DNA of 61,712 nt, counting the filler. It is 6 parts of 6 records of this genome, joined end to end, with 100 filler letters (N's around TTAATTAATTAA, not from the genome) between each part and the next. Parts side by side here need not be neighbours in the genome. Positions count along the whole stretch, not along the records: positions 10,696 to 21,264 come from SRR2962707_4439; 5 more parts are not named here. One strand, given 5' to 3'. The notes below the pieces were generated by a model. The model had not been told where the DNA came from and made no database searches. It saw nothing but the letters and a program-made list of their open reading frames with translations. The position numbers and the translations under genes are program-made. Shown in pieces: positions 4,433-31,117 of the stretch (positions are counted from its first letter, which is position 1; every line of letters starts with the position of its first letter).

Positions 4433-7400
4433 TTACCACTCCAGTTTTTCGACACCTTCGAACGTCAGCTCGCTGCCGTCCGCCAGTTCGATCTTACCGG
4501 AGGATTCACTGTCGAAGACAATACCATCCTCGGTTTCAGTGTAGGTCGCGCCATCATCGAGCTGCAGTGTCCAGCCGCTATCGCCACCCGGACCGCTGTC
4601 GACGCCGTCCAGCTGGATGGTATCGGACCAGCCATTGCCGCCATCGAAGTAATCGGCACCATCGCCGGCCCCGAAGATGAACAGGTCATCACCCTGGCCA
4701 CCGTAGGCTTCGTCGTCACCGGCGCCGCCTTCCATGATGTCGTTTCCATCACCACCGACAAGCGTGTCATCACCGGCACCGCCGAAGATAACGTCATCAC
4801 CGTCTTCGCCGCTGATGTAATCATTACCATCACCGCCGTCGATCGTATCATCGCCGCCGCCGGTATAGATGTTGTCATCACCGTCGCCACCCAGAATGAC
4901 ATCTTCCGACATGCTGGAAGCATCGTTATCCCAGGTGTCGCCACCATCATCGAGTTGTTCGAACGAGGTATCACTGCTGGAATTATCAATCCCGGCGATG
5001 GTCGTCACGGTATTGGTACTGCCATCATCCTCGGTCGACGTTGCTGTCGTGGTGAAGGCAAAATCACCTGTATCAGCCGGCACGCTAATCTGAAGACCGT
5101 CCATCTGATCGCCGGTCAACGTGAACGCACCATCCGTACCCGTGATCTCATTTCCGTCGGCATCAAGCAGAACGGCGCCATCTGGCAGATCGGTAAGCGT
5201 GACCGAGAGAGTTTCGGAACCATCCGTATCCGTCAGGTTCGTCGATATGTTGACCGGGTAGGTGATGATTTCATCGCCACTACCGCCCGCGTCCATCATA
5301 TCCTCGACGCCAAGCTCATATAGATCCTGAACCTGCTCATCGGTCAGTGGAGCATCGTATATCGCGATATCATCGATGTGCCCATCAAAGAAATCGCTCA
5401 TGCTATTGGCCGTATTATCACCGCTATACGATTGCGAAGCACCGAACGTCCAAGGGTTTTCGTTGCCCTGCAAACCGCCGGTATAGCTGGGGTCGGAAGC
5501 GACGAGCTCTCCATTCTGGAAGATTTTCATGCCCCCTTCACCCCAGGACACCGTGACCTGGTTCCATTCACCCGATGACACGCTGCCGCCGGAAATGGTG
5601 TGGCTTGAATTTTCATCCTGCATACGCAGTTGAAGCTGGCCGCTGGAATTGATCGACAGATTGAAGTGGCCACCGTCGTCGTAACCGTAAGAATCTGAAG
5701 ATGCCAATGTGCCGTCGTTGCTCTCGTCAGAGTTAAACCAGAGCGTCAGAGTGCCGCTTTCCGGCTTCAGGTCCGAGCTATGCGGCACCTCGATATACTG
5801 ACCATCATCGTCCTTGAACTCGGCACCGGTATTCAGTTCTGCAGAAACACCGCTGTGCGCTCCTGATTTATGGATATTCGACGTATCGTCCATATCCAGG
5901 TCATACTTCGACCAGGCCTCACCCACCGAATGGCCGTCATGATCGCCGATCTGGTCGTTCATGGTCAGACCGCTGGTTTCATCCATGTTCCAATAAGCCA
6001 CCGGAGATGGATTGCCGCCGCTTACCGTACCTTCGCCAAGCTCGACGGAAATCGTCGGCTCGTCCGCAATACCCGTGACATCCACGCTGAGAGTCGCCGT
6101 CGATGAAGACGTATCGCCACTCGAGGTTTCCGTCGTCGTCGCCGTGATCGTCAGGTCGAAATTGTCGTTGCTGTTTTCCGGCGGCGTGATCGTCAGGCCT
6201 TCAAGCTGGTCCTGAGTAACCTCGGCAGCACCGTCGGTGATGGTGATATTGTTGCCATCCCCATCTGTCAGCACCGCACCATCCGGGATATCGGAAATCG
6301 TGATTGCCAGGGTTTCCGAACCATCCGCGTCGGTCATATCGATATCGATATTCAACTCGATGGCCGTATCTTCGAAGCCCGCGGCATCATTTTCAGTGAT
6401 CGACGCGCCTTCGGCGACATTGTCGATCTCCGGCACCGTGACCGAGAATGTGGTCGTCGTTGTTGCCGTATCGCCATCGCTTTCAGCTGACGTTGCCGTC
6501 ACGGTGACATCAAAGTCCTGGGCATCGCCCGGCAGTTTCACCGACAATCCATCGACATCGGCTGCATCCACCGTCCACGACCCGTCCTGGTTCTGCGTCC
6601 CGGCTGAAAGCACGGCGCCATCCGGCAGATCATCAATCGTCACGGAAAGGGTCTCTGACCCATCCGTATCCGTTAGCGCTGCCGACAGATCGAGTTCGAC
6701 ATTGAAGCCGAAGCCGTCGCCGGCACTGATCGTCTGGGTTTCCAGAACTCCGCCGTCACCGTCGACAACGGAAAGCGTAATGTCGTGTGGTCCGCCATCA
6801 CCTTCCGCCAATGTCACCTGGATATTGTTGACGTCATCCGCATCAACCGTCCACGTGCCGTCTTCGTTCTCAGTCCCGACGTTCAGCGTCGCACCGGCTG
6901 GCATGTCGGAAACGATGACACTGACGTCACCACCGCCGATTTCATCAGGGATCGAATAATGCCCGTCGTTTTCAAGAACCACACCTTCTGGCGGCTCGGA
7001 ATAGAGCATGTCACCGGAAATGGTCTGGCCATTCAACTCGACACTCAGAACCTGATCACCACCGTTTTCCCAATAGGTGATCTCGATCGGATAGAGGCCA
7101 CCCTCTTCGACCGTGAACGTGCCATGCGAGTCAGATGCACCCCGGTTGCCATCAAATTCCGTCACCGTTTCACCACCGACATTCAGCCGGAAACCGTCAT
7201 CCGTTCGGCCGGTGAAGGTGTGGGTACCAGGTTCCAGATAAATGTAACCCGTCATTTGCACAGCGAATGTTTCAGCGCTAGCGGATAGATCACCACTGCC
7301 ACTGGCAGCATCGTCACCCAGGAAGTCGCCAATATCGCTACCACCGGAATAATTGACGTCCGTTGCCGTAAAGCTGGCGGACGGCGAATTGCCATCAATC

Positions 7401-10400
7401 ATGCTGTCGATCTGCGACAAGTTGCTGAGGCTGCTCGACGTATTGTAAACCGCACCGCTCAACCCGGAACCGCCGGGCAGTTCATACGGCTGTGCCGCAC
7501 CATCTTCAATGGCCGAAGTGATATCCACGGATACGTCTACATCAATGGTCTGCTGCAGCGGCGTGGCGTCAACATCCGCGGCCTCAACCGTCGGTTCATC
7601 GGCAACGCCGACAACGTCGACATCAATGCTTGCCGTATTGGTCGAGGTCGCACCCGTGGACTCTTCAGTCGTTGTCGTGGTCACCGTCAGCGAGAAATCT
7701 TCATTGCTGTCGGTCGGCGGCGTGATCGTCAGCCCTTCGAGCTGATCGGCACTTACCTCGGCAGAACCTTCCGAAATCGTAATGACATTACCACCTGCAT
7801 CGTGCAGCACGGCGCCGTCTGGAATGTCCGAAATCGTGATGGTCATCGTTTCCGAACCATCGGTATCGAGCTGGGTCACATCAATATCCAGCGCGATTGC
7901 GGAATCTTCGTTCCCGGTCGCACTGGTTGTTTCGATCGTTGCACCTTCGGCTGTGTCGTCGAACACAGGCACATCCACACTGAGTGTCGTGGAGACCGTG
8001 TTGGTATCGCCGTCGTTCTCGGTCGACGTCGCGGATACAGCCAGATCGAAGTCAGCCGTTCCTTCCGGCACACGAATGGAAAGACCTTCGAGCTGACCCG
8101 AGGTCAATTCCGCTGACCCATCGGTTATGGTGATTTCATTGCCCGCACCGTCCAGCAGCACGGCACCATCGGGGAGGTCATCAATCGTGATGGACAGGCT
8201 TTCCGAACCATCCGTATCCGAAAGGCTCGATGTGATATCGAGATCGAAACTGACCATGTCGGGTTCGAGATCAACATTCACGGTTTCGGTCGCCAGCGTC
8301 GTATCCCAGTCATCGCCGGTTGCGATCTGGAAATTATCGACCGCCATGCCTTCGGTTGATGCGGTTGCATCAACATGCATCTGAACCTGAACCTGGCCAT
8401 TACCATCAAGCGTGACTTCAAAGCTGTAGCTGTTGTCGTCATCGCTGGATGAATTCAGAACCTGGGTTCCGTTCATCGAAACCTGGAAGAAGTCGGCGAA
8501 TGAACCGCCCTCGTCCCATCCACCATAATCTTGGGTATCAAACGAGATCGTGACCGTCTGACCGGCATGTTCCTCGCCGAAGTCAAAGGTTTTCGTGGCC
8601 GTGTCACCATCGCTGATGTTCATCGTACCGTTCGAACACGCGACATCATTGCCCCAGCCGGATGCACCACTGGTGAACTGTTCACTCACAAGTGTTTCAC
8701 CCGCCTCGCCTGGCCCTTCGACCGTTATGCTCAACGACACGTCGGTGGCTTCCGAACCGTCAGCCGGGGTAATCGTCAGATCTTGAAGATCTTCCGCGTC
8801 CAGTGTCCAGGAGCCGTCACCGTTATCCGTACCACCGGAAAGCACCGCCCCGGCAGGCACACCGGTCACAACCACGGTTGCCCCGGCGGTCCCGGCGGCG
8901 GTCATCGTATCATCCGACACTTCAACATCCGTCGTCCCGCCGGTCTGCTCACCTTCACCTATGCTGACACTCAGTTCAGGCGCATCGGCAACACCCGTTA
9001 CATCGACATCCAGCGTCGCAGTAGCGGTACTCGTCTCGCCCGTGGATTCCTCTGTCGTCACGGTCGTAACCGTCAGCGAGAAGTCCTCGTTGCTGTCTGT
9101 CGGCGGCGTGATCGTCAACCCTTCAAGCTGGTCCGCGCTGATCTCGGCGGAACCATCCGTGATGGTGATCACGTTGCCGCCCGCATCGTGCAGCACGGCC
9201 CCATCCGGAATGTCGGAGAGCGTGATCGTCATGGTTTCTGAACCATCGGTATCCAGCTGCGTCACATCAATATCGAGTGCAATCGCCGTATCTTCATTGC
9301 CGGCTACATTGGAGGCATCGATTGTTGCCCCCTCTGCCATCATATCCAGCTCAACGCCGGCAGCACTGATTGTCGTCGTCACTGTTGCCGTATCGCCATC
9401 GTTTTCGGTCGAAGTCGCAGTGACCGTGAAGTCGAATGCATCACCGGCATTATCGCCACTCAGCGTTACCGTCAGGCCTTCAAGATCACCTGCATCGACC
9501 GTCCACGAACCGTCTTCGTTCTGTGTCCCGGCGGACAACACCGCCCCGTCCGGCAGATCATCGATGGTAATAGACAGACTTTCCGACCCGTCCGTGTCCG
9601 TCAGGCTCGAACTGATATCCAGAGGATATTCGACGGATGTCTCACCGCCCTCAACGGTTGTAAATTCGATGGAGTGGATGAGATAGTCATCGTTCTCACC
9701 CGGTGCCGAGAATACGATCTGGTCGAACGACCCACCGTCGTCGGCGGTCAGGGTGATCGGCGCATCCACGTTATCGGTGATCCCCGTCACCTGGCCTTCA
9801 CCGACCTTCACGCCGTCACGATAGATTTCATACGTGGCATCTTCCGTGTTGCTCAACCAAGCAAAGGACACGTCCGCCGAAGAAATATCGTCATCAAACG
9901 ACACGACGATCTGCTCGGAAACACCCTCGTCGGCATCGTAACCAAGTTCCGAACCGGCAGCGTCCGGCGTATCGCCTGATACGCCAAAACCACCCGGGCT
10001 TTGATTGTAGGTCAGGTTGTCCGGTGACGCGTCGGACAGTGATCCGTCCGGATTGACGCTACGGCCAGCGACCGTGAAGCCGGAGTCGGTGCTCGTATAG
10101 TTGTCCGCGCCGATGGTAACGTCGACTTCCTCACCGCCGGTTATCGTCACAACTGGCTCACCAAGGGACGCGGACAGGGCCGGTGCATCGGCAACCCCCG
10201 TCACATCAACATCGATCGTCCCGTCCACGGTGGCCGTCTGACCGTTCTCTTCGGTTGTGACCGATATACCAAGTGTAAAGTCGGCATTAGAATCCGTCGG
10301 CGGCGTGATCGTCAGACCATCCAGTTGATCCTGCGTAACCTCGGCAGAACCGTCGGTTATGCTGATTTCATTGCCGCTCGCATCGTGCAGGACGGCACCG

Positions 10401-10595
10401 TCAGGAATATCCGTCAATGTGATCGATGAAATATCGTCCACGCTGGAGACATCGATATCCAGTGCGATGGCCGAGTCTTCATACCCGGCTGCGTCTGCAG
10501 TGGTCAGGTCGGCTTCATCCACAACGCCGTCGACGGTGATCGAGACGGTCGCCTGATCCTCACCACCCTGGCCGTCGGAGACGGTGTAGGTGAAG
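4433..10595 (-). CDS. Giant repetitive RTX/T1SS-type surface adhesin, 5' truncated (tandem Ig/cadherin-like repeats, PA14 domain, LamG domain, C-terminal RTX nonapeptides)
   Basis: ORF open to the contig edge (FTYTVSDGQGG..ATVSITV); recurring EDxAIxLDIDV..DGSE..LTITPP repeats; PA14-like MTGYIYL..TDDGFRL..YWENGG (~7000-7480); LamG-like AYWNMDE..FDGHIDDIAIYD (~5320-6005); GGxGDD repeats (~4600-4900). Confidence 0.9.
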
Positions 10596-10695
10596 NNNNN
10601 NNNNNNNNNNNNNNNNNNNNNNNNNNNNNNNNNNNNNNNTTAATTAATTAANNNNNNNNNNNNNNNNNNNNNNNNNNNNNNNNNNNNNNNNNNNN
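10596..10695. other. Artificial contig spacer
   Basis: 100 nt: N-run, TTAATTAATTAA (stops in all six frames), N-run. Confidence 0.97.
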
Positions 10696-10696
10696 C

Positions 10697-11134
10697 CCGG
10701 GCTTTGAAGCACCGGTTCTGCTGGCTTATTCTGCGCGTAACCGTTCTGCATCTTGCCGTATCCCTTACACTGCTTCGCCGAAAGGCAAGCGTGTCGAGAT
10801 CCGCTTCCCGGATGCACTGGCCAACCCGTATCTGGCATTCTCTGCCATGCTGATGGCTGGCCTTGACGGTATCGAGAACAAGATCCACCCGGGCGAAGCA
10901 ATGGACAAAAACCTCTATGACCTTCCAGCGGAAGAGCTCAAAGATGTCCCGACCGTTTGCCGCTCGCTTCATGAAGCACTCGACAGCCTCAGCGCTGACC
11001 GTGACTTCCTGAAGAAAGGTGACGTCATGACCGACGACCTGATCGACGCATATATCGACCTGAAAATGGAAGAAGTCATCCGTTTCGAACAGTCGCCACA
11101 CCCGGTCGAATTCGACATGTATTACAGCGGTTAA
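10697..11134 (+). CDS. glnA: Glutamine synthetase type I, 3' fragment
   Basis: Reads [37 protein letters not shown] from the contig edge; adenylylation motif NLYDLP; ends [11 protein letters not shown]. Confidence 0.95.
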
Positions 11135-11263: not shown

Positions 11264-11941
11264 CTATTTCCGAAAGCTACCAACTGCCGCTTTGATACCG
11301 GTCATCACCTTGTTGATGGAACCGGACACAACTTTTCCCGGGCCACCTGCCTTACCGGCTTCGCGCAAGGTCATATAGGTGATCACGATATAGGCACTGT
11401 ATTCGACGATCTGGGAATACATCTGGACATAGACACTGTTCGGATCGCCAAAGAACTTGCCAGCAACAAGATCAAACTGGACCGGCGCATCAGCATCACC
11501 AAACGCGACCCAGAAACCCGCGACCACCGTATTGATAATGGCAAGCGCGATATCGACCGCAAACACAGCCATCACTGGCCAAACCATGGCACGGGTCAAC
11601 TGGCGCACCACCCAAGGCCGGGTTGTCATCCGCATTAGCGCGACCTCTGAGGCCGCTTCTGGCGTCAAGGCACCAAGCGTTTCGGCATCGACACGGCCGC
11701 CCTGAATTTCGAGGCGGTCATTCTGTGCCTGATACATCTCGATTTCATTGGACATCCGGTCGACAAATGCCTGCTGCTGGTCGGCTGGCAACTGTTCAAC
11801 GGCAGACCGAAGGGCTACGGCTGTGTCAGGCGCGGCAGTGCCTGTCACTTCTTCGTAGACCTTCTTACCGGTATCGAACAGTTCGGCAACGCCGGTGATG
11901 GCGCTGAAAATGGCCGGGATCGCGGCGAGGAAAGCAACCAT
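11264..11941 (-). CDS. Phage holin-like membrane protein (3TM/GTA-holin-like)
   Basis: Follows the endolysin; N-terminal amphipathic segment, RMTTRPWV motif then hydrophobic segments and Y..LR..K; start MVAFLAA at 11941. Confidence 0.6.
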   Translation of the reverse strand: MVAFLAAIPAIFSAITGVAELFDTGKKVYEEVTGTAAPDTAVALRSAVEQLPADQQQAFVDRMSNEIEMYQAQNDRLEIQGGRVDAETLGALTPEAASEVALMRMTTRPWVVRQLTRAMVWPVMAVFAVDIALAIINTVVAGFWVAFGDADAPVQFDLVAGKFFGDPNSVYVQMYSQIVEYSAYIVITYMTLREAGKAGGPGKVVSGSINKVMTGIKAAVGSFRK

Positions 11942-11942
11942 A

Positions 11943-12332
11943 TCAATAGCTCCACAATGCCGGTGACGGGAAGCCGTGTTGTTCGGCCATGTCGAAATGC
12001 AGGAAACGCTTGCTGTGATCCGGGTTGTCCTGGCTAACACCGATACGGCGGATGCCGTGCTTGTATGCAATCATCATAAGGCGCAACGCATCTGCACCGC
12101 TGACCGCGATATCAACAGCACAGCCATAGGTATGCGCGCCGGGGTTGGCCTTCTTGCGTTCAGCCGAATGGGATGGGTCGCGGTAGCCAGATGACGGCAC
12201 AATCGGCTTTCCGAACTCGGTACGGATCGCCTGCAGGACATCAACGAACCGCTTCTGCATCTCGTTCTTGCCGGTTTCCTTGCAGTCAAATTCGGACTTC
12301 GAAAAGTTTGGGTAATCGTTCCAGTTAATCAT
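11943..12332 (-). CDS. Peptidase M15-family endolysin (Zn D-Ala-D-Ala carboxypeptidase-like)
   Basis: NFSKSEFDCK, SSGYRDPSH, AHTYGCAVDI and FLHFD zinc-ligand motifs. Confidence 0.85.
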   Translation of the reverse strand: MINWNDYPNFSKSEFDCKETGKNEMQKRFVDVLQAIRTEFGKPIVPSSGYRDPSHSAERKKANPGAHTYGCAVDIAVSGADALRLMMIAYKHGIRRIGVSQDNPDHSKRFLHFDMAEQHGFPSPALWSY

Positions 12333-12336
12333 GGCT

Positions 12337-12765
12337 CTAATCCACTTTCATGACGGTTTCGATGTTCGCGATGCGGACCTCGTGGTTAACCTGCTGCTCT
12401 GAAATGGAGACGATCTTGTCCAACCGGTCGAACAGACGGTCGAATCTGCTATCGAACTTTCGTTCCATTTCTTGGAGGTCTGATTTGTGAACAGCGGTGT
12501 CTCTGATGCTTTCAAGGCGGGTCCAGATTTTCTCCCACTCAATCCGGCTTTCGGACTTCCGGGAATCCATTATCTTGATGAGCATTTCCATGCCCTTCGC
12601 GACTTCCTCGGATTGATCATGTTTATGCTTTTCCAACGCGGCCTTGGCCTCGGATTTGACATTCTCAACGATCCGCCAAACCCATATTGCGGCCCCACCG
12701 ACAGCGATGGCCGTCACCGAAACCACCCCGTAGAACTCGCTGGGGCTAAGTTGAATGTTTTCCAA
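12337..12765 (-). CDS. Phage membrane protein with one N-terminal TM helix and coiled coil (lysis-cassette, holin/antiholin-like)
   Basis: TTG start with GGGAG RBS; TM segment GVVSVTAIAVGGAAIWVW; lies just upstream of the endolysin. Confidence 0.5.
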   Translation of the reverse strand: MENIQLSPSEFYGVVSVTAIAVGGAAIWVWRIVENVKSEAKAALEKHKHDQSEEVAKGMEMLIKIMDSRKSESRIEWEKIWTRLESIRDTAVHKSDLQEMERKFDSRFDRLFDRLDKIVSISEQQVNHEVRIANIETVMKVD

Positions 12766-12789
12766 GGCCTGCTCCCTGCCATCGCGCAT

Positions 12790-12816
12790 AAAAAAGACCG
12801 CTTTAAGCGGCCGGTC
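12790..12816 (-). terminator. Terminator-like hairpin between structural and lysis genes
   Basis: Minus strand GCCGC-TTAAA-GCGGT then CTTTTTT; overlaps the stop codon of the 100-aa gene. Confidence 0.5.
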
Positions 12817-13105
12817 CTTTAAGTTTTTGTTCGAGTTCTTGCCAGCTTTCACCGGATGCCACCAAACACGATGGCCCGCTGGGATAGGTGAACAGGATTG
12901 TCCATGTTTCACCGTCCGGTGCTTTAAGAACCTCGATCACGCCACCATTTGAGGTGACACCAATCGCAACAGGTTCCTCGCTGTACTTGGCTTGCAGGCT
13001 GGAGATCACCTTCTGGCGGTCGCCGCAGACCGGACTTGCGGAGATAGGGAACGACGGCAATAAAAAAAGGACCGCTGCATAAGCGATCCCGATAAAGCGT
13101 TTCAT
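12803..13105 (-). CDS. Small secreted phage protein, unknown function
   Basis: Signal peptide, two Cys (VCGDR..SCLVASGE), GAAGGA RBS. Confidence 0.7.
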   Translation of the reverse strand: MKRFIGIAYAAVLFLLPSFPISASPVCGDRQKVISSLQAKYSEEPVAIGVTSNGGVIEVLKAPDGETWTILFTYPSGPSCLVASGESWQELEQKLKGPAA

Positions 13106-13136
13106 GGGTTTGGTCCTTCTATTTGCTGGAATGCGT

Positions 13137-15587
13137 TCACTGCACGTTTCGTGCCCGCATTTTGGCGCGAATTGCCCGCTGGGGCTCTGGCTCTTCCCGG
13201 CGCGGGGATATCATTCCAGAAAGAGTTTCTGCGGGCTGCTCGATCATGGTTCCGTCACTAAGTGCGATCTTCACCCAGACCTGACCATTTTCTTCGGCCG
13301 CATCAACGATGACACCTGATGCAACTGACCCATTGGCGCGATATACATCGACAGCGGTGTTCGTTTTGGGCATCTGAACGCTTGAAAGCAGAGCGTTCGA
13401 TTTTTTACCTGCCATAGCATCAGAGATAAACCTCTTACCTGATGCAATATCGCCTGTTTCAATGGGGCTTGATACATCGGTTTCGCTTATTGGAATCGGC
13501 TGGGACCCCGCTCTTTCGCGTTCGCCAGACGGGGCATTGAATGGCATCGACACTGTTGCCGTCCGATCTGGTGACATCCAACCGACCTGCTGCCCGTCGC
13601 CTGCGAAAATGGGCTGGTACCCATTCGGCGCGACAGATGTCTCTTGAGCGGCCACCATGCCCTGAGCAACACCTTTGCCATTCCCTGCGGCACCAGATTG
13701 ATCAGCTACTGCCTGCCGCAATCGCTGGACGGATCCACTATTTTGCGCCGTGTTCTGACTGAAAAGCATGTCGCCGATCTCGTCGCGCACCTTCTCTTGC
13801 GGCATCGAGACAAAATCGCCCACAGCTCTGGCGCCACGGCCAAGCAACCCAATTTTGTTTCCCGTCAGAAGGTCTGAAGCAACACCTGCTCCACCCTCTA
13901 GATCAAGCCCCTCTTCAAGTCTTGGTTGAGTTTGAGAACCGGACAGGATTTCGTTTCGGGTGCGCGACATCTTCATTTCGGCAAGCATACGCTTTTCAAA
14001 CTCTTGATAGGCTTTCCGGTTGGGGAAAACTGCGGCGAGTTTGTTGCGCTTGAGTTTTGTACCGAAAAGACGCTTCGCGATATCTGAATTATCAGGTGCC
14101 TTGCGGATTTCCTCAACCAGTTGTCGAGCCACACCGTTGCGGAAAAATGCTTTGTCGTTCTCACTGAGGCGCGATAACTGCGATTTAGTGACCTCGACAT
14201 CACCACGCAGAAAAGCCCGTCCTTTTTGCAAAGCATCCAGCGATTGCGAAGGGCCGGCCCATGCTTCTCGTGCTGCCTTGTAATCAGGGTTCGCCTCATC
14301 CAGAAGGGAAAGAAATCTATTCTTGGTATTGTTGATTGCCCGACCGGATTCGTCCAGCACTAGCCTTCCCGTCGTTTTGTCCCTGAATGTCTCAAGAACA
14401 TCATCGATACCACGCTTAACGTAATCAAGGGTTTGCATCGAAGGTGTCTTCGTGAAAACAACATCACCAGCATCATTTAGATCAAACCCAAGACTGGCCG
14501 GATCTCGACCCTCTTCCGTTGCGATACGTCCCGCCCTGTTCACCGCCTGCTTCATGGACGGGCGGTCCATCAGAGCAGAAATCTTGTCATTCCAGACATC
14601 GGTTTTTTCATAGGCTTTTTTATAAAGTGGTGCGGCACGGTCTGCCCTCAGCGCCATCAAGTTATCGGCATTCTCGTAGAAGCTGTCTCCGCTCTCGGTT
14701 AAGCCCTCTTCTGCGGCGCCCTCTATACGCCGATACTGAGTTGCGTTGCGGCGATCAAGGACACGTTCAGCCGTGTTTTTTGCGCGACCTGGTTTACTTG
14801 AAGCGGCACGGCCAAGGCCCCGGAGGTTCTTGCCACCAGCATCTGCGATGGTTGCTTCCGGGCCAAGCATCTCAAGGCGGCGTGCGATTCGATCCGGGCT
14901 GCTGTCGTCCTTGGCGATAGCATCAATGATCTTTCGATCCGCCGCTGTAGCTGGTCCATTTTTGCGGATCCTGTCAAGCACAGCATCAAATGCCTTTGAT
15001 GTAGCTTTTGCCAAAGGGTATGCTGCGGCCCCTATTCCAGCACCGACTAGCGCACTTTTACCGGCATTATCTATGCGGTTCTCGATTCCGTCTTCCCCAG
15101 CGCCAAACCCGGAAAGAGCGCCACCTGTCGCGCCTGTTGCCACGGCTCCTTTGAATCCGTTCAGCATCTTTGCCCCAGACGCGACTTTTCCCGGCCCTGC
15201 AATTGCTCCGGCAATTTCGGCACTGGTTGAAATAATGGGGTGTTCTTGTGCGAATGTTGCGTTTTGAAGTCTCTCTGCTTCAAGAGCTTGATCGTAACGC
15301 TCCCCCATTGGATTGCTGTAATTGAACCAGTCCCCGTCCGGGGTGCGCCCAAGTAACGCGGCTTCTGCCGCTGTCATCTCGTCTCCGAAATTAAATGTTG
15401 CGCCAGCGGTAAAGCTATCAACAATGCTTTCAGCCATCCCTTGGTCTTTTGGTTGGCGACCAAGAATGTTAATCAACTCTTCGTCTGACAGGGCGCTGAC
15501 AGGGCGGGCAACAGGCGTGTCAGTTACCCCGGCACTGCCAAGCATCTGCTTGATATCATCATCGCTGATTTTCGAAAGGTCTGCCAT
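13137..15587 (-). CDS. Large putative DNA ejection (internal virion) protein
   Basis: 816 aa; GATFNFGDE motif, Gly/Ala-rich hydrophobic segments, helical body (LDYVKRGIDD, NPDYKAAR); last of the structural block. Confidence 0.7.
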   Translation of the reverse strand: MADLSKISDDDIKQMLGSAGVTDTPVARPVSALSDEELINILGRQPKDQGMAESIVDSFTAGATFNFGDEMTAAEAALLGRTPDGDWFNYSNPMGERYDQALEAERLQNATFAQEHPIISTSAEIAGAIAGPGKVASGAKMLNGFKGAVATGATGGALSGFGAGEDGIENRIDNAGKSALVGAGIGAAAYPLAKATSKAFDAVLDRIRKNGPATAADRKIIDAIAKDDSSPDRIARRLEMLGPEATIADAGGKNLRGLGRAASSKPGRAKNTAERVLDRRNATQYRRIEGAAEEGLTESGDSFYENADNLMALRADRAAPLYKKAYEKTDVWNDKISALMDRPSMKQAVNRAGRIATEEGRDPASLGFDLNDAGDVVFTKTPSMQTLDYVKRGIDDVLETFRDKTTGRLVLDESGRAINNTKNRFLSLLDEANPDYKAAREAWAGPSQSLDALQKGRAFLRGDVEVTKSQLSRLSENDKAFFRNGVARQLVEEIRKAPDNSDIAKRLFGTKLKRNKLAAVFPNRKAYQEFEKRMLAEMKMSRTRNEILSGSQTQPRLEEGLDLEGGAGVASDLLTGNKIGLLGRGARAVGDFVSMPQEKVRDEIGDMLFSQNTAQNSGSVQRLRQAVADQSGAAGNGKGVAQGMVAAQETSVAPNGYQPIFAGDGQQVGWMSPDRTATVSMPFNAPSGERERAGSQPIPISETDVSSPIETGDIASGKRFISDAMAGKKSNALLSSVQMPKTNTAVDVYRANGSVASGVIVDAAEENGQVWVKIALSDGTMIEQPAETLSGMISPRREEPEPQRAIRAKMRARNVQ

Positions 15588-15669
15588 GTTTCACCTTTTG
15601 GAATGGTCAGATGCGTTAAAATGCGTCATTCTTTCATCTGTTCCCTGATGTCCCCACCAAGGAAAGCAA

Positions 15670-16089
15670 ATGAAATTCCTGATCGCTGTAATGATTGGAT
15701 TGTCGGTCACGGTAGCGGCTCATGCCGAAACAAAGGTACCGACAGCCGATGCCGTTTACCGGTTCTGCATAAATGAAGAGCCGGGCGATCTAAAGGCCTG
15801 TCACGGATATTTGCGTGGCATGGTCGAATATCACCAGTATCTCGAAAGCACGGAACGCAAGTGGTGTCTTCCAGACAAATGGGATACCGCTGTTATCCTG
15901 AAAGCAATTCTGCCCCGCCTTGAACAGGCTCACATGAGGCCAGAATGGGGCCAGATGTCCGCCTACGGTTTTGTTGCTGTTGCGATAGCCGAGGCCTTCC
16001 CTTGCGATAATGGCCTCTCTCATCTCAGCGACGAGGAACTGCTTGATCTTCTCGACAAACTTAGACGCAAGGGCGAGAGATCATCTTAA
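15670..16089 (+). CDS. Secreted Rap1a/Tai-like immunity-fold protein (antisense prophage moron) with a C-terminal LSDEEL extension
   Basis: Signal peptide (..VAAHA-E); Cys pattern C..C-HGYLRG..WCLP..AEAFPC typical of Rap1a; AAGGA RBS; shares TTAA stop overlap with the convergent gene. Confidence 0.7.
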   Translation: MKFLIAVMIGLSVTVAAHAETKVPTADAVYRFCINEEPGDLKACHGYLRGMVEYHQYLESTERKWCLPDKWDTAVILKAILPRLEQAHMRPEWGQMSAYGFVAVAIAEAFPCDNGLSHLSDEELLDLLDKLRRKGERSS

Positions 16090-17468
16090 TTGATGATTCC
16101 CCGCTTTCTGGCTTCCTCGATAATTTCAGACAGATCGCGTTCCTCGCCATCCGGGCCAACGATCCGCTGATTGGTTGACAATCTGTCGTTTCCGGAACGA
16201 CTGCGACCATTCCCGCTGGACTGATCGCCATCGGTCAATGGATCACCGTTTCCCGCGCCGCCATATTCATTCCGGAACGCCTTGATACGATCTGCGCGAA
16301 CCGAGTTCAGGTTGTTTCTAATGCGTAAAAGGTTGGCACGTAGCTCGTCGACGCTTTGACCCTGCTCTATGCTGTTATTGACAGACTGCAGCAACGCCAG
16401 CTCTCGTTCAGTCACCTGACCAAGCGCCCCACCTGTTGGCGAGTTATCACGCATTTCCTGCAAACGGTCGAAGCCGATGTTTGCCTTGATCGTATCCAGT
16501 CGCTTGGAAATATCATATGCCGATGTCCCAGGAACGTTGGACATCATCGACCCGGGTGCCCCAGCCGTCCATCCGTCAAGGTCCTCCAAAACACGATCAA
16601 TTGTTGTAACAACGGTTTCCGTGGTTCGATCCAGACTTGACATACTGCTGCGGGCTTTACGTTCACGCATCGGCGCCTCAACGTCATCCTTGGCCTGTTC
16701 CTTGGCTCTGGCGACATCATATTGAATACCGGCGTCTGCAGATGGAGACATCAAGGGCTTTGCTCCGGGTCCCTCATTTTGAGAAAGTGCATCGGGATTG
16801 TCTTCAGCCAACGATGAGGGGTCGATATCTTGCGGAACATTAGTCGGGGATCCGTCGCTATCGACAGTCGGATAGAACGGTTGACCAATGCGGGTCGGGC
16901 TTCCTTTTTCGTCAACACCCAGCATAATCGCCATTCCACTGATCTTGTCGACCATCATCTGCCCACCCGCAGTCGGGACGACATAATATCGACTTTTGCC
17001 GTCGCCGCTCTTTTCTGGCGCGCGCTGACCAATAGCATCTGCGGGATCAGCATAAACGCGATTCCCGTTTTGATCTATCACCTCAACAGGCTTCCGGTTC
17101 TTATCGTTCTGCCCCGCCGTGAAATCACGGTTTGCAGTGTTTTCATTGCTCTGATGCGAACGGTTGGCATTATTCTCGCCAGATGTGAACTCTTGCCCGC
17201 CGATCCGCTCCGACCGGGTGAAGTCACGGTTGAGATCGTTCTGACCTGCGGCGAAGTCCTGACCTGCGGCACGTTCACCGCTCTGGAAGGATTGCGTGTC
17301 TTCGCGATCAGCAACAGCATTGGCGCGGTCTTCAACACGATGCCTGTCCTGACGGGCTGCAACCACTTCCCGGATGCGATCTTCGCGATCCTGTCTGCCC
17401 TTCTCGACCATACCCATGCCTACGCCTGTTGCCAGACCGCCTGTAAATGCAAGAAGACCGTTCGCCAT
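16086..17468 (-). CDS. Putative DNA ejection protein with 11-residue repeats
   Basis: Gly-rich N-terminus, hendecad repeats, C-terminal IKANIGFDRLQEMRDNSPTGGALGQVTERELALL motif of the kind seen in podovirus DNA-transfer proteins. Confidence 0.7.
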   Translation of the reverse strand: MANGLLAFTGGLATGVGMGMVEKGRQDREDRIREVVAARQDRHRVEDRANAVADREDTQSFQSGERAAGQDFAAGQNDLNRDFTRSERIGGQEFTSGENNANRSHQSNENTANRDFTAGQNDKNRKPVEVIDQNGNRVYADPADAIGQRAPEKSGDGKSRYYVVPTAGGQMMVDKISGMAIMLGVDEKGSPTRIGQPFYPTVDSDGSPTNVPQDIDPSSLAEDNPDALSQNEGPGAKPLMSPSADAGIQYDVARAKEQAKDDVEAPMRERKARSSMSSLDRTTETVVTTIDRVLEDLDGWTAGAPGSMMSNVPGTSAYDISKRLDTIKANIGFDRLQEMRDNSPTGGALGQVTERELALLQSVNNSIEQGQSVDELRANLLRIRNNLNSVRADRIKAFRNEYGGAGNGDPLTDGDQSSGNGRSRSGNDRLSTNQRIVGPDGEERDLSEIIEEARKRGIIN

Positions 17469-19508: not shown

Positions 19509-20813
19509 TCAAACGCCAGTGCATACACACCAGAGAACCGGCGCGTTACGTGGGCGGGTTTCGGTGCCGCCTGTCGAACTGGTTTCACTAGGCGATCCAA
19601 CACCAGCAGTGGCCGAACCTCCAGCGGTGACAGCAAATCCCTGCCCGTAATCCGCATTGTGGGTGTGTGCCTTGATTTCATCTTCCTGCATCGTCGCCCA
19701 TTTACGAGCAGAACCTGCATTCCATCCGCGCGTGAACACACCTTCCGCGCCATCACTGCCGTTCAGGTCAGGCAGTTTGATATAATCGCCGGTCGTGCTG
19801 CGGGTATTGTCCGGGTCGGCATTGTCTGTGCAGCGATAGAAGAAATCGGCAGTCGCGTTATCGGTATCCCCGACATAGACCGCATCGACAAAGTCTGAAT
19901 AGGTCGCCACAAGAAGGCATTGACCACTGCAGGCAGCCCAGCCGCTAGGTGCTGTCTTAATCCCAAGCGGTTGATACGCCCCAATAGGCATGATCCGTTT
20001 ACTGACTTCAGCCGACAGTAAGGCCAGCGTGACACTGTCCTGAGACGCCAAAATCCCGAGTTCATCAATGGTCAGAGTTGTTGTAACCCATTCCGCAGCA
20101 CCAACTGATGCGACAATGCATGCAAACGCTTCTTTCGAAACGATGTTCAACCACCGTGAACCGGATGAGTACCCAGCACTGCTGTCATCCGTTGGAGATG
20201 GGTCGACTATTGCATCAAATTTATTCGCAGGAAGTTGCGCCGCAGATGCCGCCGCCTCCCCTGCTTTGGTTGTAGCAATCCCCGCCTGTGTCGTCGCAAT
20301 GCCTGCCTGAGTTGTCGCAGTTGAAGCGCCTGTCGTTGCCGTTACGGCGGATGCAGCAGCAGCAGTCGCAAAACCTTCAGCGTTACCGACATATCCACGA
20401 TGCGGCGTTGCCATGCGAAAGACATTGGTGTCTTCGTTGTACTTGAAAACCACGATGTCACCAGCAGTCAGATCGGCTGCTTCCGGGTCGACACCAAACG
20501 CTGTTTTGATCGAAACCGCACCTTGTGTATCGACATTAAGCGTGCTGGCCCCGGTATTGGTGGCCGGGATTTTTACCGTGACTTCCATCCCATCGACATA
20601 GCCGCCTGTTAATGCGGTTGGCATCGCTGCGGCATAAGCATTTGCGGCACCTGTTCCGACGCAATAGGTTGTTCTCCCCAGATTAAGAAGGGACAACCCC
20701 GGAATGAGATCAAAACCGACAGCAATGGATTGGAAGAACCCGTTAAGCGTACTGTTTCTTGCCAACGTATTTCGGGCAAGCGGGTTTGTGAAATTAAAGA
20801 ATTCATTACTCAT
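19509..20813 (-). CDS. Phage tail fibre protein with C-terminal collar-type domain
   Basis: NTGASTLNV segment, ATTQAGI heptad repeats, MPIG..APSGW..CSG, LPDL..FTRG..QEDEIKAHTH..ETRPRN motifs. Confidence 0.85.
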   Translation of the reverse strand: MSNEFFNFTNPLARNTLARNSTLNGFFQSIAVGFDLIPGLSLLNLGRTTYCVGTGAANAYAAAMPTALTGGYVDGMEVTVKIPATNTGASTLNVDTQGAVSIKTAFGVDPEAADLTAGDIVVFKYNEDTNVFRMATPHRGYVGNAEGFATAAAASAVTATTGASTATTQAGIATTQAGIATTKAGEAAASAAQLPANKFDAIVDPSPTDDSSAGYSSGSRWLNIVSKEAFACIVASVGAAEWVTTTLTIDELGILASQDSVTLALLSAEVSKRIMPIGAYQPLGIKTAPSGWAACSGQCLLVATYSDFVDAVYVGDTDNATADFFYRCTDNADPDNTRSTTGDYIKLPDLNGSDGAEGVFTRGWNAGSARKWATMQEDEIKAHTHNADYGQGFAVTAGGSATAGVGSPSETSSTGGTETRPRNAPVLWCVCTGV

Positions 20814-21264: not shown

Positions 21265-21364
21265 NNNNNNNNNNNNNNNNNNNNNNNNNNNNNNNNNNNN
21301 NNNNNNNNTTAATTAATTAANNNNNNNNNNNNNNNNNNNNNNNNNNNNNNNNNNNNNNNNNNNN
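21265..21364. other. Artificial contig spacer
   Basis: N-run, TTAATTAATTAA, N-run. Confidence 0.97.
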
Positions 21365-27101: not shown

Positions 27102-27201
27102 NNNNNNNNNNNNNNNNNNNNNNNNNNNNNNNNNNNNNNNNNNNNTTAATTAATTAANNNNNNNNNNNNNNNNNNNNNNNNNNNNNNNNNNNNNNNNNNN
27201 N
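27102..27201. other. Artificial contig spacer
   Basis: N-run, TTAATTAATTAA, N-run. Confidence 0.97.
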
Positions 27202-27220
27202 CCAACTGAGCTAAACCCCT
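27202..27220 (-). tRNA. 5' fragment of a tRNA (acceptor strand and D arm), possibly tRNA-Trp
   Basis: Minus strand AGGGGTTTAGCTCAGTTGG runs into the contig edge; the anticodon is not visible, so identity is inferred from the AGGGG start. Confidence 0.6.
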
Positions 27221-27276
27221 TCAGGCGAGGCTGTGTCTAATGGCAAAGCGGTGACTTCGCAAGACCCTTCCGTGCC

Positions 27277-27669: not shown

Positions 27670-27868
27670 ACGAAAAGCCTTGGTAGGTTGCCTGAACGGG
27701 CTAGCAGACTGCTAACGTTGAGTACAACCGATCAGTTCACCGCCAATCGCACCAGACCGGCATTTACAAATCCCGCCAGCCAGCCAATAAAGATCAGGCG
27801 AGTTTTGGGAATCCGCGGCGGCTGCCGACATGTTCACTCAGGGACCAACCGGTCCCGGAAGGAAACCG

Positions 27869-28456: not shown

Positions 28457-28528
28457 CGACCGAACAGGCAAACGGCGCTGGCCACGATCCCGTGGAGCCA
28501 GCGCCGCAAACCGGACAAACCTGTGCGC

Positions 28529-30978: not shown

Positions 30979-31117
30979 GGCTCTGCCCCCGGCCTTCATC
31001 TCAAATATCGCGATCAAGTCACTGCTGTCGCTTGCCCAGCGTCCACTGGCTTGATCCTGATCAAGACAGTCTGGCGCAAAGGGACCACTATTGGGTTACC
31101 AAGAGGGAGATCGTTCC

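What the first reader, a model, noticed from the sequence alone, without database searches (positions are those of the whole stretch)
15462..16089. Antisense prophage moron: a secreted Rap1a-like protein whose tail repeats the 'LSDEEL' motif of the adjacent ejection protein (candidate decoy superinfection-exclusion system)
Seen: the only plus-strand gene in the phage late block sits exactly between two ejection-like genes and shares a TTAA stop overlap at 16086-16089. It has a signal peptide and a Rap1a-type Cys pattern ending AFPC, then an extra tail GLSHLSDEELLDLLDK (~16012-16059). The divergent 816-aa protein begins with two copies of the same helix motif: DLSKISDDDIKQML (~15540-15581) and VSALSDEELINIL (~15462-15500). 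The codons differ, so the match is at protein level and is not a recent DNA duplication. Established: Rap1a proteins are periplasmic inhibitors of T6SS peptidoglycan amidases, and P22 sieA, which lies next to the ejection genes, blocks DNA entry. Inference: the lysogen exports a periplasmic scaffold presenting a mimic of the ejection protein's assembly motif, jamming channel assembly by related phages.
Basis: partly seen in the sequence, partly recalled or inferred. Interest (0 to 1): 0.78.

Follow-up and report, generated by a model that had tools for sequence, protein, structure and literature searches.

The report
Secreted prophage protein mimicking ejection-protein motif
A prophage carries, backwards between two of its DNA-injection genes, a small exported protein of a bacterial "immunity" fold whose added tail copies the signature start of the neighbouring injection protein, which suggests, without proving, a decoy that keeps related phages out.

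Summary
ORF 15670-16089 (+) encodes a 139-aa protein. It has a Sec-type signal peptide, a Rap1a/Tai4 domain (Pfam 38.4 bits against a cut-off of 27.7; Foldseek best hits Rap1a and Tai4) and an extra C-terminal helix.

It lies antisense between a 460-aa and an 816-aa virion gene and shares a 4-nt stop overlap with the former.

The tail core LSHLSDEEL is 9/9 identical between two alleles whose bodies are 31% identical and whose distal tails are 9% identical. Six of the nine codons differ between them.

The tail is absent from the other 52 Rap1a-like proteins retrieved and from Rap1a-like genes of five cultured phages. Both alleles sit at the same site beside 816-family genes that start with the same motif.

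That motif recurs at the N-termini of the 816 family: 16 of 81 loci, against 4 of 626 other long ORFs.

Function could not be tested. My best reading, at about 0.4, is a periplasmic superinfection-exclusion factor that uses peptide mimicry against assembly of the DNA-delivery conduit. Rivals are an orphan T6SS-immunity moron, a Spackle-like hydrolase inhibitor, and an inert tail.

I saw no residue-level covariation between tail and partner motif. That the neighbours are ejection proteins is itself an inference.

The parts
15670..16089 (+). Rap1a/Tai4-like moron gene, 139 aa, stop included
   Evidence: ORF. Pfam PF18602 38.4 bits against cut-off 27.7. phrog_3870 at E 1.2e-4. AF2 model with mean pLDDT 86.3. 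Foldseek best hits are Rap1a 4bi8_A/3zfi_A (TM 0.79 on target, prob 1.00) and Tai4 6ije/6ijf.
15670..15726 (+). Signal peptide, residues 1-19, with predicted cleavage after AHA
   Evidence: Read from the sequence. All four allele types have an equivalent n-h-c segment ending in a small-x-small site. No signal-peptide predictor was run.
15745..16005 (+). Rap1a domain, residues 26-112, with four conserved Cys (C33, C44, C66, C112) and ending in FPC
   Evidence: C44, C66 and C112 are invariant and C33 is at least 90% conserved across 22 sequences. C66 and C112 align with the two Cys of Serratia Rap1a.
16012..16086 (+). C-terminal tail, residues 115-139. The core LSHLSDEEL is nt 16015-16041. A helix is predicted from residue 121.
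   Evidence: The core is 9/9 identical to the P0013-type allele, while the body is 26/83 and the distal tail 1/11.
16086..16089 (.). TTAA: overlapping stop codons of the convergent Rap1a-like and 460-aa genes
   Evidence: The second allele has the same 4-nt arrangement as CTAG at L082:757-760.
15588..15669 (.). 82-bp divergent intergenic region holding an inverted repeat (15610-15627). A promoter or operator is presumed here but was not found.
   Evidence: no sigma-70-type site was found (0, against 0.9 expected). One stem-loop was flagged as terminator-like.
13137..15587 (-). 816-aa virion protein (phrog_5880), a candidate gp16-like ejection protein with glycine-rich hydrophobic segments
   Evidence: phrog_5880 at E 3.3e-81. 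There are 129 relatives in IMG/VR. An ESM Atlas lead points to Phage_P22_gp16 (0.93, 158 shared features). hhalign against P22 gp16 was negative.
15540..15581 (-). N-terminal motif copy 1, DLSKISDDDIKQML (residues 3-16)
15462..15500 (-). N-terminal motif copy 2, VSALSDEELINIL (residues 30-42), the best match to the tail
   Evidence: score 40; 0 of 5000 shuffles reach it.
16086..17468 (-). 460-aa virion protein, a candidate ejection protein
   Evidence: phrog_24864 at E 9e-27 and phrog_2534 ('released from the phage upon host infection') at E 2.5e-9. Its conserved domain (residues 275-390) is fused to the 816-like core in L077, L079 and L081.
19509..20813 (-). Tail fibre gene (context: upstream end of the virion block)
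   Evidence: PHROG tail and tail-fibre families, and a sub-threshold Pfam Collar hit.
11943..12332 (-). Endolysin, Peptidase_M15_3 (context: the lysis end of the prophage, next to the glnA 3' end at 10696-11134)

Best explanation
The gene is a prophage moron. It encodes a Sec-exported, disulfide-bonded, soluble periplasmic protein of the Rap1a/Tai4 fold, onto which a short amphipathic helix has been grafted. That helix copies the N-terminal signature motif of the phage's own gp16-like ejection protein.

Proposed mechanism, all of it inferred. In a lysogen the protein waits in the periplasm. When a related phage ejects its internal proteins, the 816-type protein must use its flexible N-terminal motif to dock onto a partner. 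That partner is most likely the C-terminal end of the 460-type periplasmic conduit protein, by analogy with P22 gp16 and gp20. The tail competes for that docking site, or co-assembles as a dead-end subunit, so the conduit is not completed and DNA does not enter. This would be superinfection exclusion by peptide mimicry. The Rap1a body would serve as a stable, probably dimeric carrier, and may also inhibit a cell-wall hydrolase.

Shown here: the gene, its fold, the secretion signal, the insertion site, conservation of the tail, and the restriction of the tail to this genomic context.

Inferred: periplasmic location, expression in the lysogen, the ejection role of the neighbours, the partner, and exclusion itself.
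For: 1. The protein has the Rap1a/Tai4 fold with a signal peptide and four conserved Cys, so it should act outside the cytoplasm. There it can meet ejection proteins only during infection, not during assembly.

2. The tail is an add-on. Of 58 other Rap1a-like proteins retrieved, only six carry it: P0001, P0002/P0048 and P0013/P0046/P0047. The other 52 lack the motif. Those whose C-terminus is intact end 0-13 residues after FPC, apart from two with unrelated tails (P0017, P0080) and four truncated fragments.

3. The peptide is under selection. Between the window-type and P0013-type alleles the body is 26/83 identical, the core LSHLSDEEL 9/9, and the distal tail 1/11. Six of the nine core codons differ, including AGC against TCT for Ser. 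A conserved island between two divergent flanks argues against a shared recombination flank.

4. Both alleles occupy the same site with the same 4-nt stop overlap, between a 460/480-aa gene and an 816/630-aa gene that starts MADLSKLSDDE. P0013 and P0051 lie two locus tags apart on a 743-kb contig.

5. The motif is a signature of the 816 family. The loose motif occurs in the first 120 residues in 16 of 81 loci, against 4 of 626 other ORFs of at least 300 aa. The tail's best matches across 1.5 million residues are these N-termini.

6. Tail-less Rap1a-like genes sit elsewhere. Four metagenome loci place them beside an aminotransferase and an amidase. Among phages, one sits next to an HTH regulator, two are among early genes, and one is antisense between structural genes. 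None of the 81 816-family loci outside the close clade has a Rap1a-like ORF.

7. Precedents exist. P22 sieA lies antisense right after ejection gene 16. SieA escape mutations map to gp16 and gp20 (PMC10883804, abstract and section 16 read). A 2026 preprint reports AlphaFold3 models joining the gp20 C-terminal plinth to gp16 residues 1-205, and says gp16 probably diffuses in the periplasm before docking (10.64898/2026.09.03.749273, passages read). T4 Spackle is a periplasmic exclusion protein (PMC7677548, abstract seen in the listing).

8. The N-terminal 45 residues of the partner are a swappable module. P0026 and P0049 are 544/555 identical in the core but 21/42 at the N-terminus. That pattern would fit an arms race.
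Against: - Nothing was measured: no expression, localisation, binding or exclusion.
- No promoter-like site was found upstream. The scan covers only sigma-70 consensus sites, however.
- No residue-level covariation is seen. The same partner type (P0027/P0051) pairs with tails that differ after the core, and the core is invariant while partner motifs vary.
- All tail-bearing examples come from one phage clade, with two alleles and about four lineages, so co-occurrence is not phylogenetically independent.
- Pairing of P0001 with P0025 and of P0002 with P0027 is inferred only from equal contig length and source.
- The neighbours' ejection role is inferred. hhalign of the 816 family against P22 gp16 gave probability 0.5%, and BLASTP of the 460-aa protein against gp20 gave nothing.
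- The only direct similarity to gp16 is a 24-residue N-terminal segment in a distant family member (E 0.010 for a single pair).
- Both alleles retain a Rap1a fold, which suggests the body does more than carry a peptide. The pure decoy idea does not explain that.
- Phages whose 816-type protein has the motif but that have no Rap1a-like gene show the motif has its own unknown function.
Confidence: 0.4

Rival explanations
1. Orphan T6SS-immunity moron. The prophage gives its host a periplasmic inhibitor of Tae4/Ssp1-type peptidoglycan amidases delivered by competitors. The tail is an accessory element, for stability or oligomerisation, that has nothing to do with phage entry.
For: The protein belongs to Rap1a/Tai4 by Pfam, PDB profile search and fold. 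The characterised family members are T6SS immunity proteins (PMC3852654 and PMC3533786, seen in a listing). Both alleles keep the fold. Mobile elements, prophages included, carry T6SS toxin and immunity clusters in Ralstonia (PMC11481896, passages read).
Against: It does not explain why the tail exists only in the alleles inserted between the two virion genes. It does not explain why the tail core is 9/9 conserved while the body is 31% identical, or why it copies the neighbour's N-terminal signature. No effector or T6SS gene is on the contig, and no host genome is held. Rap1a-like genes also occur in lytic phages (Schitoviridae Moonfish gp50, DSL-LC04), where lasting protection of the host is less obvious.
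Confidence: 0.2
2. Spackle-like exclusion. The Rap1a body inhibits a peptidoglycan hydrolase carried by the infecting virion. The tail only tethers the inhibitor to the ejected protein complex.
For: The fold is that of a peptidoglycan-amidase inhibitor. T4 Spackle is a periplasmic inhibitor of the gp5 lysozyme domain (PMC7677548, abstract in the listing). This reading explains why both alleles keep fold and tail together. A relative, Rhizobium phage RHph_I1_23, has a 'putative cell wall hydrolase' directly after its 816-family gene.
Against: No hydrolase domain other than the M15 endolysin was found in the phage proteins of the window contig or of L082. The contig is partial, so this is a weak negative. 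The M15 fold is unrelated to the papain-like Tae4 enzymes that Rap1a is known to inhibit; that point is recalled, not tested here.
Confidence: 0.15
3. The body is the receptor and the tail a pseudo-ligand. The Rap1a body binds LSDEEL-type helices. Its own tail occupies the groove until an incoming ejection-protein N-terminus displaces it, so the protein captures the 816-type protein directly.
For: The tail is joined by a lower-confidence linker (pLDDT about 72) to a confident helix (82-87). That layout is compatible with a tethered intramolecular ligand. The tail and partner motifs are alike.
Against: There is no direct evidence. I could not inspect contacts in the model. The two bodies are only 31% identical while the tail is constant.
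Confidence: 0.08
4. The tail has no function of its own. It is a remnant of an inverted partial duplication or a recombination joint created when the moron was inserted, and it has been kept by linkage.
For: The tail abuts the conserved junction with the 460-aa gene. The 4-nt stop overlap is conserved in both alleles. All examples come from one phage clade.
Against: The conserved nine residues lie between two divergent flanks, and the residues nearest the junction are the least conserved (1/11). Synonymous sites in the core have diverged at 6 of 9 codons. The tail is modelled as a confident helix.
Confidence: 0.1

Closest known systems
Rap1a (Serratia marcescens) and Tai4 (Agrobacterium, Salmonella): T6SS immunity proteins, Pfam PF18602
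   Same: The domain is matched above Pfam's threshold and has the same all-helical fold (TM 0.79 and 0.72 on the target). The C-terminal FPC and its partner Cys are conserved. Export signal is present.
   Different: There is no cognate effector or T6SS neighbour, and the gene lies in a prophage virion block. It has an extra Cys pair (C33, C44). It has a 25-residue C-terminal helix found in none of the other 52 family members retrieved.
phrog_3870: uncharacterised phage proteins of the same fold (for example Shigella phage Moonfish gp50 'Rap1a', phage DSL-LC04 'Tai4', Microcystis phages Mwe-JY07 and Mwe-JY25, and an unannotated ORF in Cronobacter phage ENT47670)
   Same: These are phage-borne Rap1a-like proteins. 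The P0013 allele matches the PHROG at E 2.5e-17 and the window protein at E 1.2e-4.
   Different: The PHROG profile is 115 positions long and ends at FPC. All phage matches stop at residues 105-107 of the queries P0013 and P0020, so they have no tail. Most of these genes are at other genome positions, such as the immunity region or among early genes.
P22 SieA
   Same: It is a prophage gene placed antisense directly beside the ejection-protein genes. It blocks DNA entry of related phages, and escape mutations lie in gp16 and gp20 (PMC10883804, abstract and section 16).
   Different: SieA is a multi-pass inner-membrane protein (and the abstract). It is not a soluble secreted protein, has no Rap1a fold, and no motif mimicry is known for it.
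T4 Spackle (Sp)
   Same: It is a small periplasmic phage protein that excludes superinfecting phages by binding a virion component (PMC7677548, abstract in the listing).
   Different: Spackle targets the gp5 lysozyme domain and is an early gene of a lytic phage. It has a different fold. No lysozyme-type target has been identified here.
P22 gp16 and gp20 ejection proteins (as analogues of the 816-aa and 460-aa neighbours)
   Same: Sizes and order are similar (471 aa then 609 aa in P22; 460 aa then 816 or 630 aa here). Both have glycine-rich hydrophobic segments. The ESM Atlas gives a lead to Phage_P22_gp16. P22 gp16 starts with a related N-terminal motif followed by a Q/P/E-rich linker.
   Different: No significant sequence or profile similarity was found. 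The Pfam model PF26808 was not in the local library.

Membership tests
Rap1a/Tai4 immunity proteins (PF18602) | Sequence match to the family model above the curated threshold | tested here: met
   38.4 bits against a cut-off of 27.7, residues 26-112 on profile positions 2-90 of 90. The L082 allele scores 70.8 bits. A profile of A2 hits PDB Rap1a 3zfi/4bi8 at E 2.1e-5 and Tai4 at E 1.7e-4.
Rap1a/Tai4 immunity proteins (PF18602) | Fold like the solved Rap1a and Tai4 structures | tested here: met
   The AF2 model has mean pLDDT 86.3. The top seven Foldseek rows are Rap1a and Tai4 chains, with probability 1.00, TM 0.70-0.79 normalised on the target, and E 1.7e-3 to 2.6e-2. No row reached E <= 0.001.
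Rap1a/Tai4 immunity proteins (PF18602) | Export to the periplasm (signal peptide) and a conserved disulfide pair ending in FPC | tested here: met
   An n-h-c segment with a small-x-small site is present in all four allele types. C66 and C112 are invariant and align with the Cys residues of Rap1a. I read the signal peptide by eye; no predictor was run.
Rap1a/Tai4 immunity proteins (PF18602) | Encoded beside a cognate Tae4/Ssp1-type effector or within a T6SS locus | tested here: not met
   The neighbours are phage virion and lysis genes. No effector or T6SS family was found in 10 proteins of the contig or in 6 proteins of L082.
Rap1a/Tai4 immunity proteins (PF18602) | Neutralises a Tae4-family peptidoglycan amidase | not testable with these tools
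   This needs an enzyme assay or a competition assay.
P22 SieA-type superinfection exclusion | Prophage gene antisense next to the ejection-protein genes | tested here: met
   P22 sieA (13336-13830, minus) follows gene 16 (11484-13313, plus). The window gene lies between the 460-aa and 816-aa genes on the opposite strand.
P22 SieA-type superinfection exclusion | Integral inner-membrane protein | tested here: not met
   The only hydrophobic stretch is the N-terminal signal peptide. The rest is modelled as a soluble helical domain. SieA itself is multi-pass (abstract of PMC10883804).
P22 SieA-type superinfection exclusion | Blocks DNA injection by related phages | not testable with these tools
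   This needs plating, adsorption and DNA-entry assays.
T4 Spackle-type periplasmic exclusion | Binds and inhibits a virion-borne cell-wall hydrolase | tested here: inconclusive
   No virion hydrolase was found in the 10.57-kb contig or in L082, but both are partial genomes.
P22 gp16-like ejection protein (for the 816-aa neighbour) | Match to Pfam PF26808 Phage_P22_gp16, or profile similarity to gp16 | tested here: inconclusive
   The local Pfam copy lacks the model: P22 gp16 itself, run as a control, got no such hit. hhalign of A3 against gp16 gave probability 0.5%. There is an ESM Atlas lead at 0.93 with 158 shared features. The N-terminal motif of a distant member aligns to gp16 residues 10-33 at E 0.010.
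Known anti-phage defence systems (PADLOC-DB 2.0) | Match to any model | tested here: not met
   0 families for the window protein, both L082 morons and two neighbours.

The most novel reading that the evidence does not exclude
Phages have turned a T6SS-immunity fold into a periplasmic display platform for a copy of their own ejection protein's docking helix. That would be exclusion by molecular mimicry of a short linear motif. If true, the conserved '(D)LSxLSD(E/D)(E/D)L..LL' N-terminus of gp16-like proteins would be the element that joins the inner-membrane ejection protein to the periplasmic conduit. The swapped N-terminal modules seen between otherwise 98%-identical ejection proteins would then be the escape side of an arms race.
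Probability: 0.3. Interest if true: 0.8.

Novelty: new variant of a known kind. Interest (0 to 1): 0.6.

Why it matters
How short-tailed phages build their trans-envelope DNA conduit, and how prophages block it, is known in molecular detail for very few systems. A soluble periplasmic protein that carries a copy of an ejection protein's terminal motif would have three uses.

- It would be a simple, transplantable tool for identifying that motif's partner.
- It would add peptide mimicry to the known ways of superinfection exclusion.
- It would give a first testable function to a whole uncharacterised phage family (phrog_3870, Rap1a-like) that occurs in both temperate and lytic phages.

If the protein instead proves to be a T6SS immunity protein, it would be a clean case of a prophage arming its host against bacterial competitors.

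Tried and rejected
- **Complex prediction.** I submitted two copies of the Rap1a-like protein (residues 20-139) with the 816-aa N-terminus (residues 1-55). The result was no verdict: score 0.00, and my alignments were not used. This is not evidence either way.
- **Sequencing runs.** None was listed and no RNA holder was listed for window:13137-17468.
- **Whole genome of the window.** Not held, so no search for T6SS or Tae4 genes in the host was possible.
- **Further loci for the Rap1a-like protein.** tblastn of the window protein against cultured phages found none. Scans of IMG/VR and of genome contigs found none. The metagenome scan gave one tail-bearing locus (L082) and six tail-less ones.
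- **A single-sequence scan of IMG/VR with the 816-aa protein** found nothing. The alignment-based scan worked.
- **Homology of the neighbours to solved structures.** None is meaningful. The A3 profile's best hit is a 53-residue match to AmrZ at E 5.8e-4, which I judge spurious. The 460-aa protein had no hit.
- **Homology to P22 gp16 and gp20.** Not detected.
- **PADLOC.** No hit.
- **tRNA or att site at the prophage end.** No tRNA on the contig.
- **Promoter scan.** No sigma-70-type site upstream. The host's promoter type is unknown.
- **Second motif profile.** A second, larger profile of the motif could not be built. The counts in the report use simple patterns instead. The N-terminus definition was faulty, so I replaced it with the one.
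- **A shared motif in the 460-aa C-terminus.** I considered whether (R)DLSEIIEEARKRGIIN is a further copy of the motif and rejected it. The register does not fit, and only the basic end resembles the window-type distal tail, which the P0013 allele lacks.
- **Literature.** 'Rap1a' with 'prophage' returned 3 unrelated papers. Of 2,561 papers holding at least two of 'Rap1a', 'Tai4', 'bacteriophage' and 'superinfection', I saw the 15 top-ranked, and none of those links the family to phage exclusion. Supplements were not consulted.

Full report
**What the window is.** The 61.7-kb window is not one stretch of genome. Five N44-TTAATTAATTAA-N44 linkers split it into six contigs. Their G+C ranges from about 38% to 62% and their gene content is unrelated.

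The finding lies on a 10.57-kb contig (10696-21264). This contig starts with the 3' end of glnA (stop at 11134). It then carries, all on the minus strand:
- a lysis region, with a Peptidase_M15_3 endolysin at 11943-12332;
- a secreted 100-aa protein;
- the 816-aa protein;
- the 460-aa protein;
- three proteins without family matches (196, 296 and 167 aa; the 296-aa one is glycine-rich);
- a tail fibre (19509-20813).

The contig ends soon after. No whole genome is held for the window.

**The observation.** The 139-aa ORF at 15670-16089 is the only plus-strand ORF on this contig with a family match. It has a good ribosome-binding site. Its stop overlaps the stop of the convergent 460-aa gene in the tetranucleotide TTAA. 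It is separated by 82 bp from the divergently transcribed 816-aa gene.

**What the protein is.**
- Residues 26-112 match Pfam Rap1a (PF18602) above the curated threshold (38.4 against 27.7 bits).
- A profile of 22 relatives hits the crystal-structure sequences of Serratia Rap1a (E 2.1e-5) and of Tai4 (E 1.7e-4).
- An AlphaFold2 model (mean pLDDT 86.3) has as its seven best Foldseek matches only Rap1a and Tai4 chains. These have probability 1.00 and TM 0.70-0.79 on the target, but E-values of 1.7e-3 and weaker.
- Four Cys are conserved. The last pair corresponds to the Rap1a Cys residues.
- All allele types begin with a typical Sec signal peptide. I read this by eye.
- After the family's usual end (FPC), the model shows a lower-confidence linker and then a confident helix at residues 121-138.

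**The tail is a specific, conserved add-on.** The protein is rare. Two searches of very large protein sets gave one full-length close relative (P0001, 71%) and one N-terminally truncated relative (P0002, with P0048 as its longer form). Everything else is at most 38% identical.

Among 58 other Rap1a-like proteins, only P0001, P0002/P0048 and P0013/P0046/P0047 have the tail. The other 52 lack the motif. Those whose C-terminus is intact end 0-13 residues after FPC, apart from two with unrelated tails (P0017, P0080) and four truncated fragments. I left two long multi-domain hits (P0003, P0006) out of the alignment.

P0013 is the key case. Its body is 26/83 identical to the window protein, yet the core LSHLSDEEL is 9/9 identical, and the residues after the tail's next hydrophobic turn are 1/11 identical. 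Between the window and L082 (a P0013-type locus), six of the nine core codons differ, including AGC against TCT for Ser. A conserved island between two diverged flanks, with diverged synonymous sites, points to selection on the peptide. It is hard to explain as a shared recombination flank.

**Same site, two alleles.** In L082 the order is as follows:
1. the start of a 630-aa 816-family gene (MADLSKLSDDE..., minus strand, cut by the contig end);
2. a 95-aa lipoprotein-like gene (plus);
3. the 131-aa Rap1a-like gene with tail (plus; Pfam 70.8 bits);
4. a convergent 480-aa homologue of the 460-aa gene, with a 4-nt stop overlap (CTAG).

P0013 and P0051 are two locus tags apart on a 743-kb contig. 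P0051 is a 632-aa 816-family protein in the same 90% cluster as P0027. So this phage is integrated in a bacterial chromosome.

P0002 and P0027 share a source and a contig length of 21,815 bp. P0001 and P0025 share 42,691 bp. I infer that each pair is linked, but I did not see the contigs.

Nearly identical ejection-type proteins (P0027 and P0051, 92% in the core) therefore pair with two Rap1a bodies that are about 30% identical, and both bodies carry the tail.

**The motif belongs to the 816 family.** The close relatives P0025, P0026, P0027 and P0051 all start with two motif copies.

An alignment-based scan of IMG/VR gave 129 relatives, of which 80 loci were kept. With the Rhizobium phage locus L001 that makes 81 loci. 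In 16 of these 81, the homologue's first 120 residues contain [ST][DN].[DE][LI]...[LIMA]. The same is true of only 4 of 626 other ORFs of at least 300 aa.

Examples are MTDLSKLSDQELMALL (L065), DLSTLSDEDLRAIAAG (L039, L040, L046, L050) and two copies in L058. The stricter nine-residue pattern occurs seven times in 1.5 million residues. All seven are the window tail, the two window N-terminal copies, or these N-termini. The tail core's best-scoring matches are the same sites.

In L011 and L027 a similar motif ends the protein encoded just upstream. In L077, L079 and L081 the conserved domain of the 460-aa protein is fused to the 816-like core in a single ORF. The motif therefore sits at the boundary between two modules that work together.

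The N-terminal 45 residues behave as a swappable module. P0026 and P0049 are 544/555 identical in the core but 21/42 there.

**Where tail-less relatives are.**
- None of the 81 816-family loci has a Rap1a-like ORF within the fetched flanks.
- Six tail-less metagenome loci were found. In the four I examined (L083, L084, L087, L088), the neighbours are an aminotransferase and an amidase-signature enzyme, not phage or T6SS genes. I did not examine L085 and L086.
- The family equals phrog_3870, whose profile ends at FPC.
- tblastn found it in five cultured phages, and every match ended at FPC: next to an HTH regulator in Microcystis phage Mwe-JY07; among early genes of the N4-like Shigella phage Moonfish (annotated Rap1a) and of phage DSL-LC04 (annotated Tai4); and as an unannotated antisense ORF between structural genes of Cronobacter phage ENT47670. 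Microcystis phage Mwe-JY25 was also hit, but I did not inspect its context.

Phage-borne Rap1a-like proteins are therefore not new as sequences. The tail, and its link to the ejection-gene site, are.

**Are the neighbours ejection proteins?** Evidence for:
- The 460-aa and 480-aa proteins match phrog_2534, labelled 'released from the phage upon host infection' (E 2.5e-9 and 2.1e-12).
- Their place in the gene order, between tail fibre and lysis genes, fits.
- The 816-aa protein has glycine-rich hydrophobic segments.
- The ESM Atlas places the 816-aa protein nearest, among named clusters, to Phage_P22_gp16. At 0.93 with 158 shared features this is a lead only.
- P22 gp16 begins with a related motif followed by a Q/P/E-rich linker. 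This is the best local alignment between gp16 and the L022 homologue (E 0.010 for that one comparison).

Evidence against:
- hhalign against gp16 gave probability 0.5%, and BLASTP of the 460-aa protein against gp20 gave nothing.
- The Pfam gp16 model is absent from the local library.

I treat 'gp20-like and gp16-like ejection proteins' as a reasonable inference, not a result.

**Mechanism.** An exported protein can meet virion internal proteins only when a phage ejects them into the periplasm. In P22, sieA lies antisense directly after gene 16. SieA blocks DNA entry, and escape mutations lie in gp16 and gp20 (PMC10883804, abstract and section 16). A 2026 preprint describes AlphaFold3 models joining the C-terminal plinth of gp20 to gp16 residues 1-205. 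It argues that gp16 probably diffuses in the periplasm and is slow to join the gp20 channel (10.64898/2026.09.03.749273, passages read). A freely diffusing docking step is exactly what a soluble competitor could block.

I therefore favour, at about 0.4, exclusion by a periplasmic mimic of the docking motif.

The weak points are these:
- There are no functional data at all.
- There is no fine covariation.
- All cases come from one clade.
- Both alleles keep the Rap1a fold, which the pure decoy reading does not explain.

The last point keeps the alternatives open: T6SS immunity (0.2), a Spackle-like inhibitor with a targeting tail (0.15), a body that binds the motif (0.08), and an inert tail (0.1).

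**Novelty.** Two searches of the paper library found nothing that links Rap1a or Tai4 to phage exclusion or prophage morons. PADLOC has no model for the protein. I rate it a new variant of a known kind: a prophage exclusion or conversion gene beside the ejection genes, built on a known immunity fold. Interest is 0.6. The mimicry is solid and easy to test. The mechanism is unproven.

Noticed in passing
window 10596-10695, 21265-21364, 27102-27201, 32753-32852, 42391-42490: The window is six contigs joined by N44-TTAATTAATTAA-N44 linkers. G+C differs strongly between them, from about 38% at 32853-42390 to about 62% at 27202-32752. Gene content is unrelated too, so adjacency across the linkers means nothing and the bin may be mixed.
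   Followed up: partly
L082:96-383 (+): In the second allele's locus, a 95-aa lipoprotein-like gene precedes the Rap1a-like gene and overlaps its start, forming a two-gene antisense moron operon. It has a signal peptide ending in a lipobox-type Cys. It has no Pfam, PHROG or PADLOC match.
   Followed up: partly
proteins P0026 and P0049 (816-family, same 90% cluster): The core is 544/555 identical but the N-terminal 45 residues are only 21/42 identical. The motif-bearing N-terminus is exchanged or evolves much faster than the rest of the protein.
   Followed up: partly
L077, L079, L081: 6747-9593 (+): In these IMG/VR phages the conserved domain of the 460-aa protein (residues 275-390) is fused N-terminally to the 816-like core in a single 949-codon ORF. 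The two window genes therefore correspond to a split form of one protein.
   Followed up: partly
L011:5881-7863 (+) and L027:6232-7389 (+): Proteins encoded just upstream of the 816-family gene end in a similar motif (KLSDDDILKSLGLK and TSDDELKKLLGL). The motif can therefore sit on either side of the gene boundary.
   Followed up: no
L089 (phage P22) 11484-13313, and L022:7788-9806: P22 gp16 starts with [20 protein letters not shown] followed by a Q/P/E-rich linker. Some 816-family members start with VEFPDGMSDADITAAIEKSM. This short shared N-terminal signature of gp16-like proteins appears not to have been described in the passages I read.
   Followed up: partly
L091 (Cronobacter phage ENT47670) 4001-4183 (+): An unannotated Rap1a-like ORF lies antisense between two structural genes, one of them annotated 'phage head morphogenesis'. 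This is a second case of an antisense Rap1a-like moron in a virion block, here without the tail.
   Followed up: no
L092 (Shigella phage Moonfish gp50) and L093 (phage DSL-LC04): Rap1a/Tai4-like genes sit among early genes of phages that appear lytic, one of them N4-like. A T6SS-immunity role is not obvious there, whereas early exclusion in the manner of T4 Spackle would fit.
   Followed up: no
window 12803-13105 (-): A 100-aa protein with a signal peptide (phrog_25396, E 1.6e-20) lies directly downstream of the 816-aa gene on the late strand. It is a second exported small protein in the block, of unknown role.
   Followed up: no
window 4433-10522 (-): A 2029-aa ORF has PA14, LamG/Laminin_G_3 and RTX calcium-binding repeats. 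It looks like a giant secreted adhesin-like protein that runs to the contig end.
   Followed up: no
window 33979-37834 (-): The low-G+C contig carries phytoene synthase, a phytoene-desaturase-type oxidase, an ECF sigma factor and a MerR/B12-binding (CarH-like) regulator. This looks like a light-regulated carotenoid cluster.
   Followed up: no
window 15610-15627: A perfect 7-bp inverted repeat (GATGCGT-TAAA-ATGCGTC) lies in the 82-bp divergent region between the 816-aa and Rap1a-like genes. It is a possible operator or a terminator for read-through.
   Followed up: no
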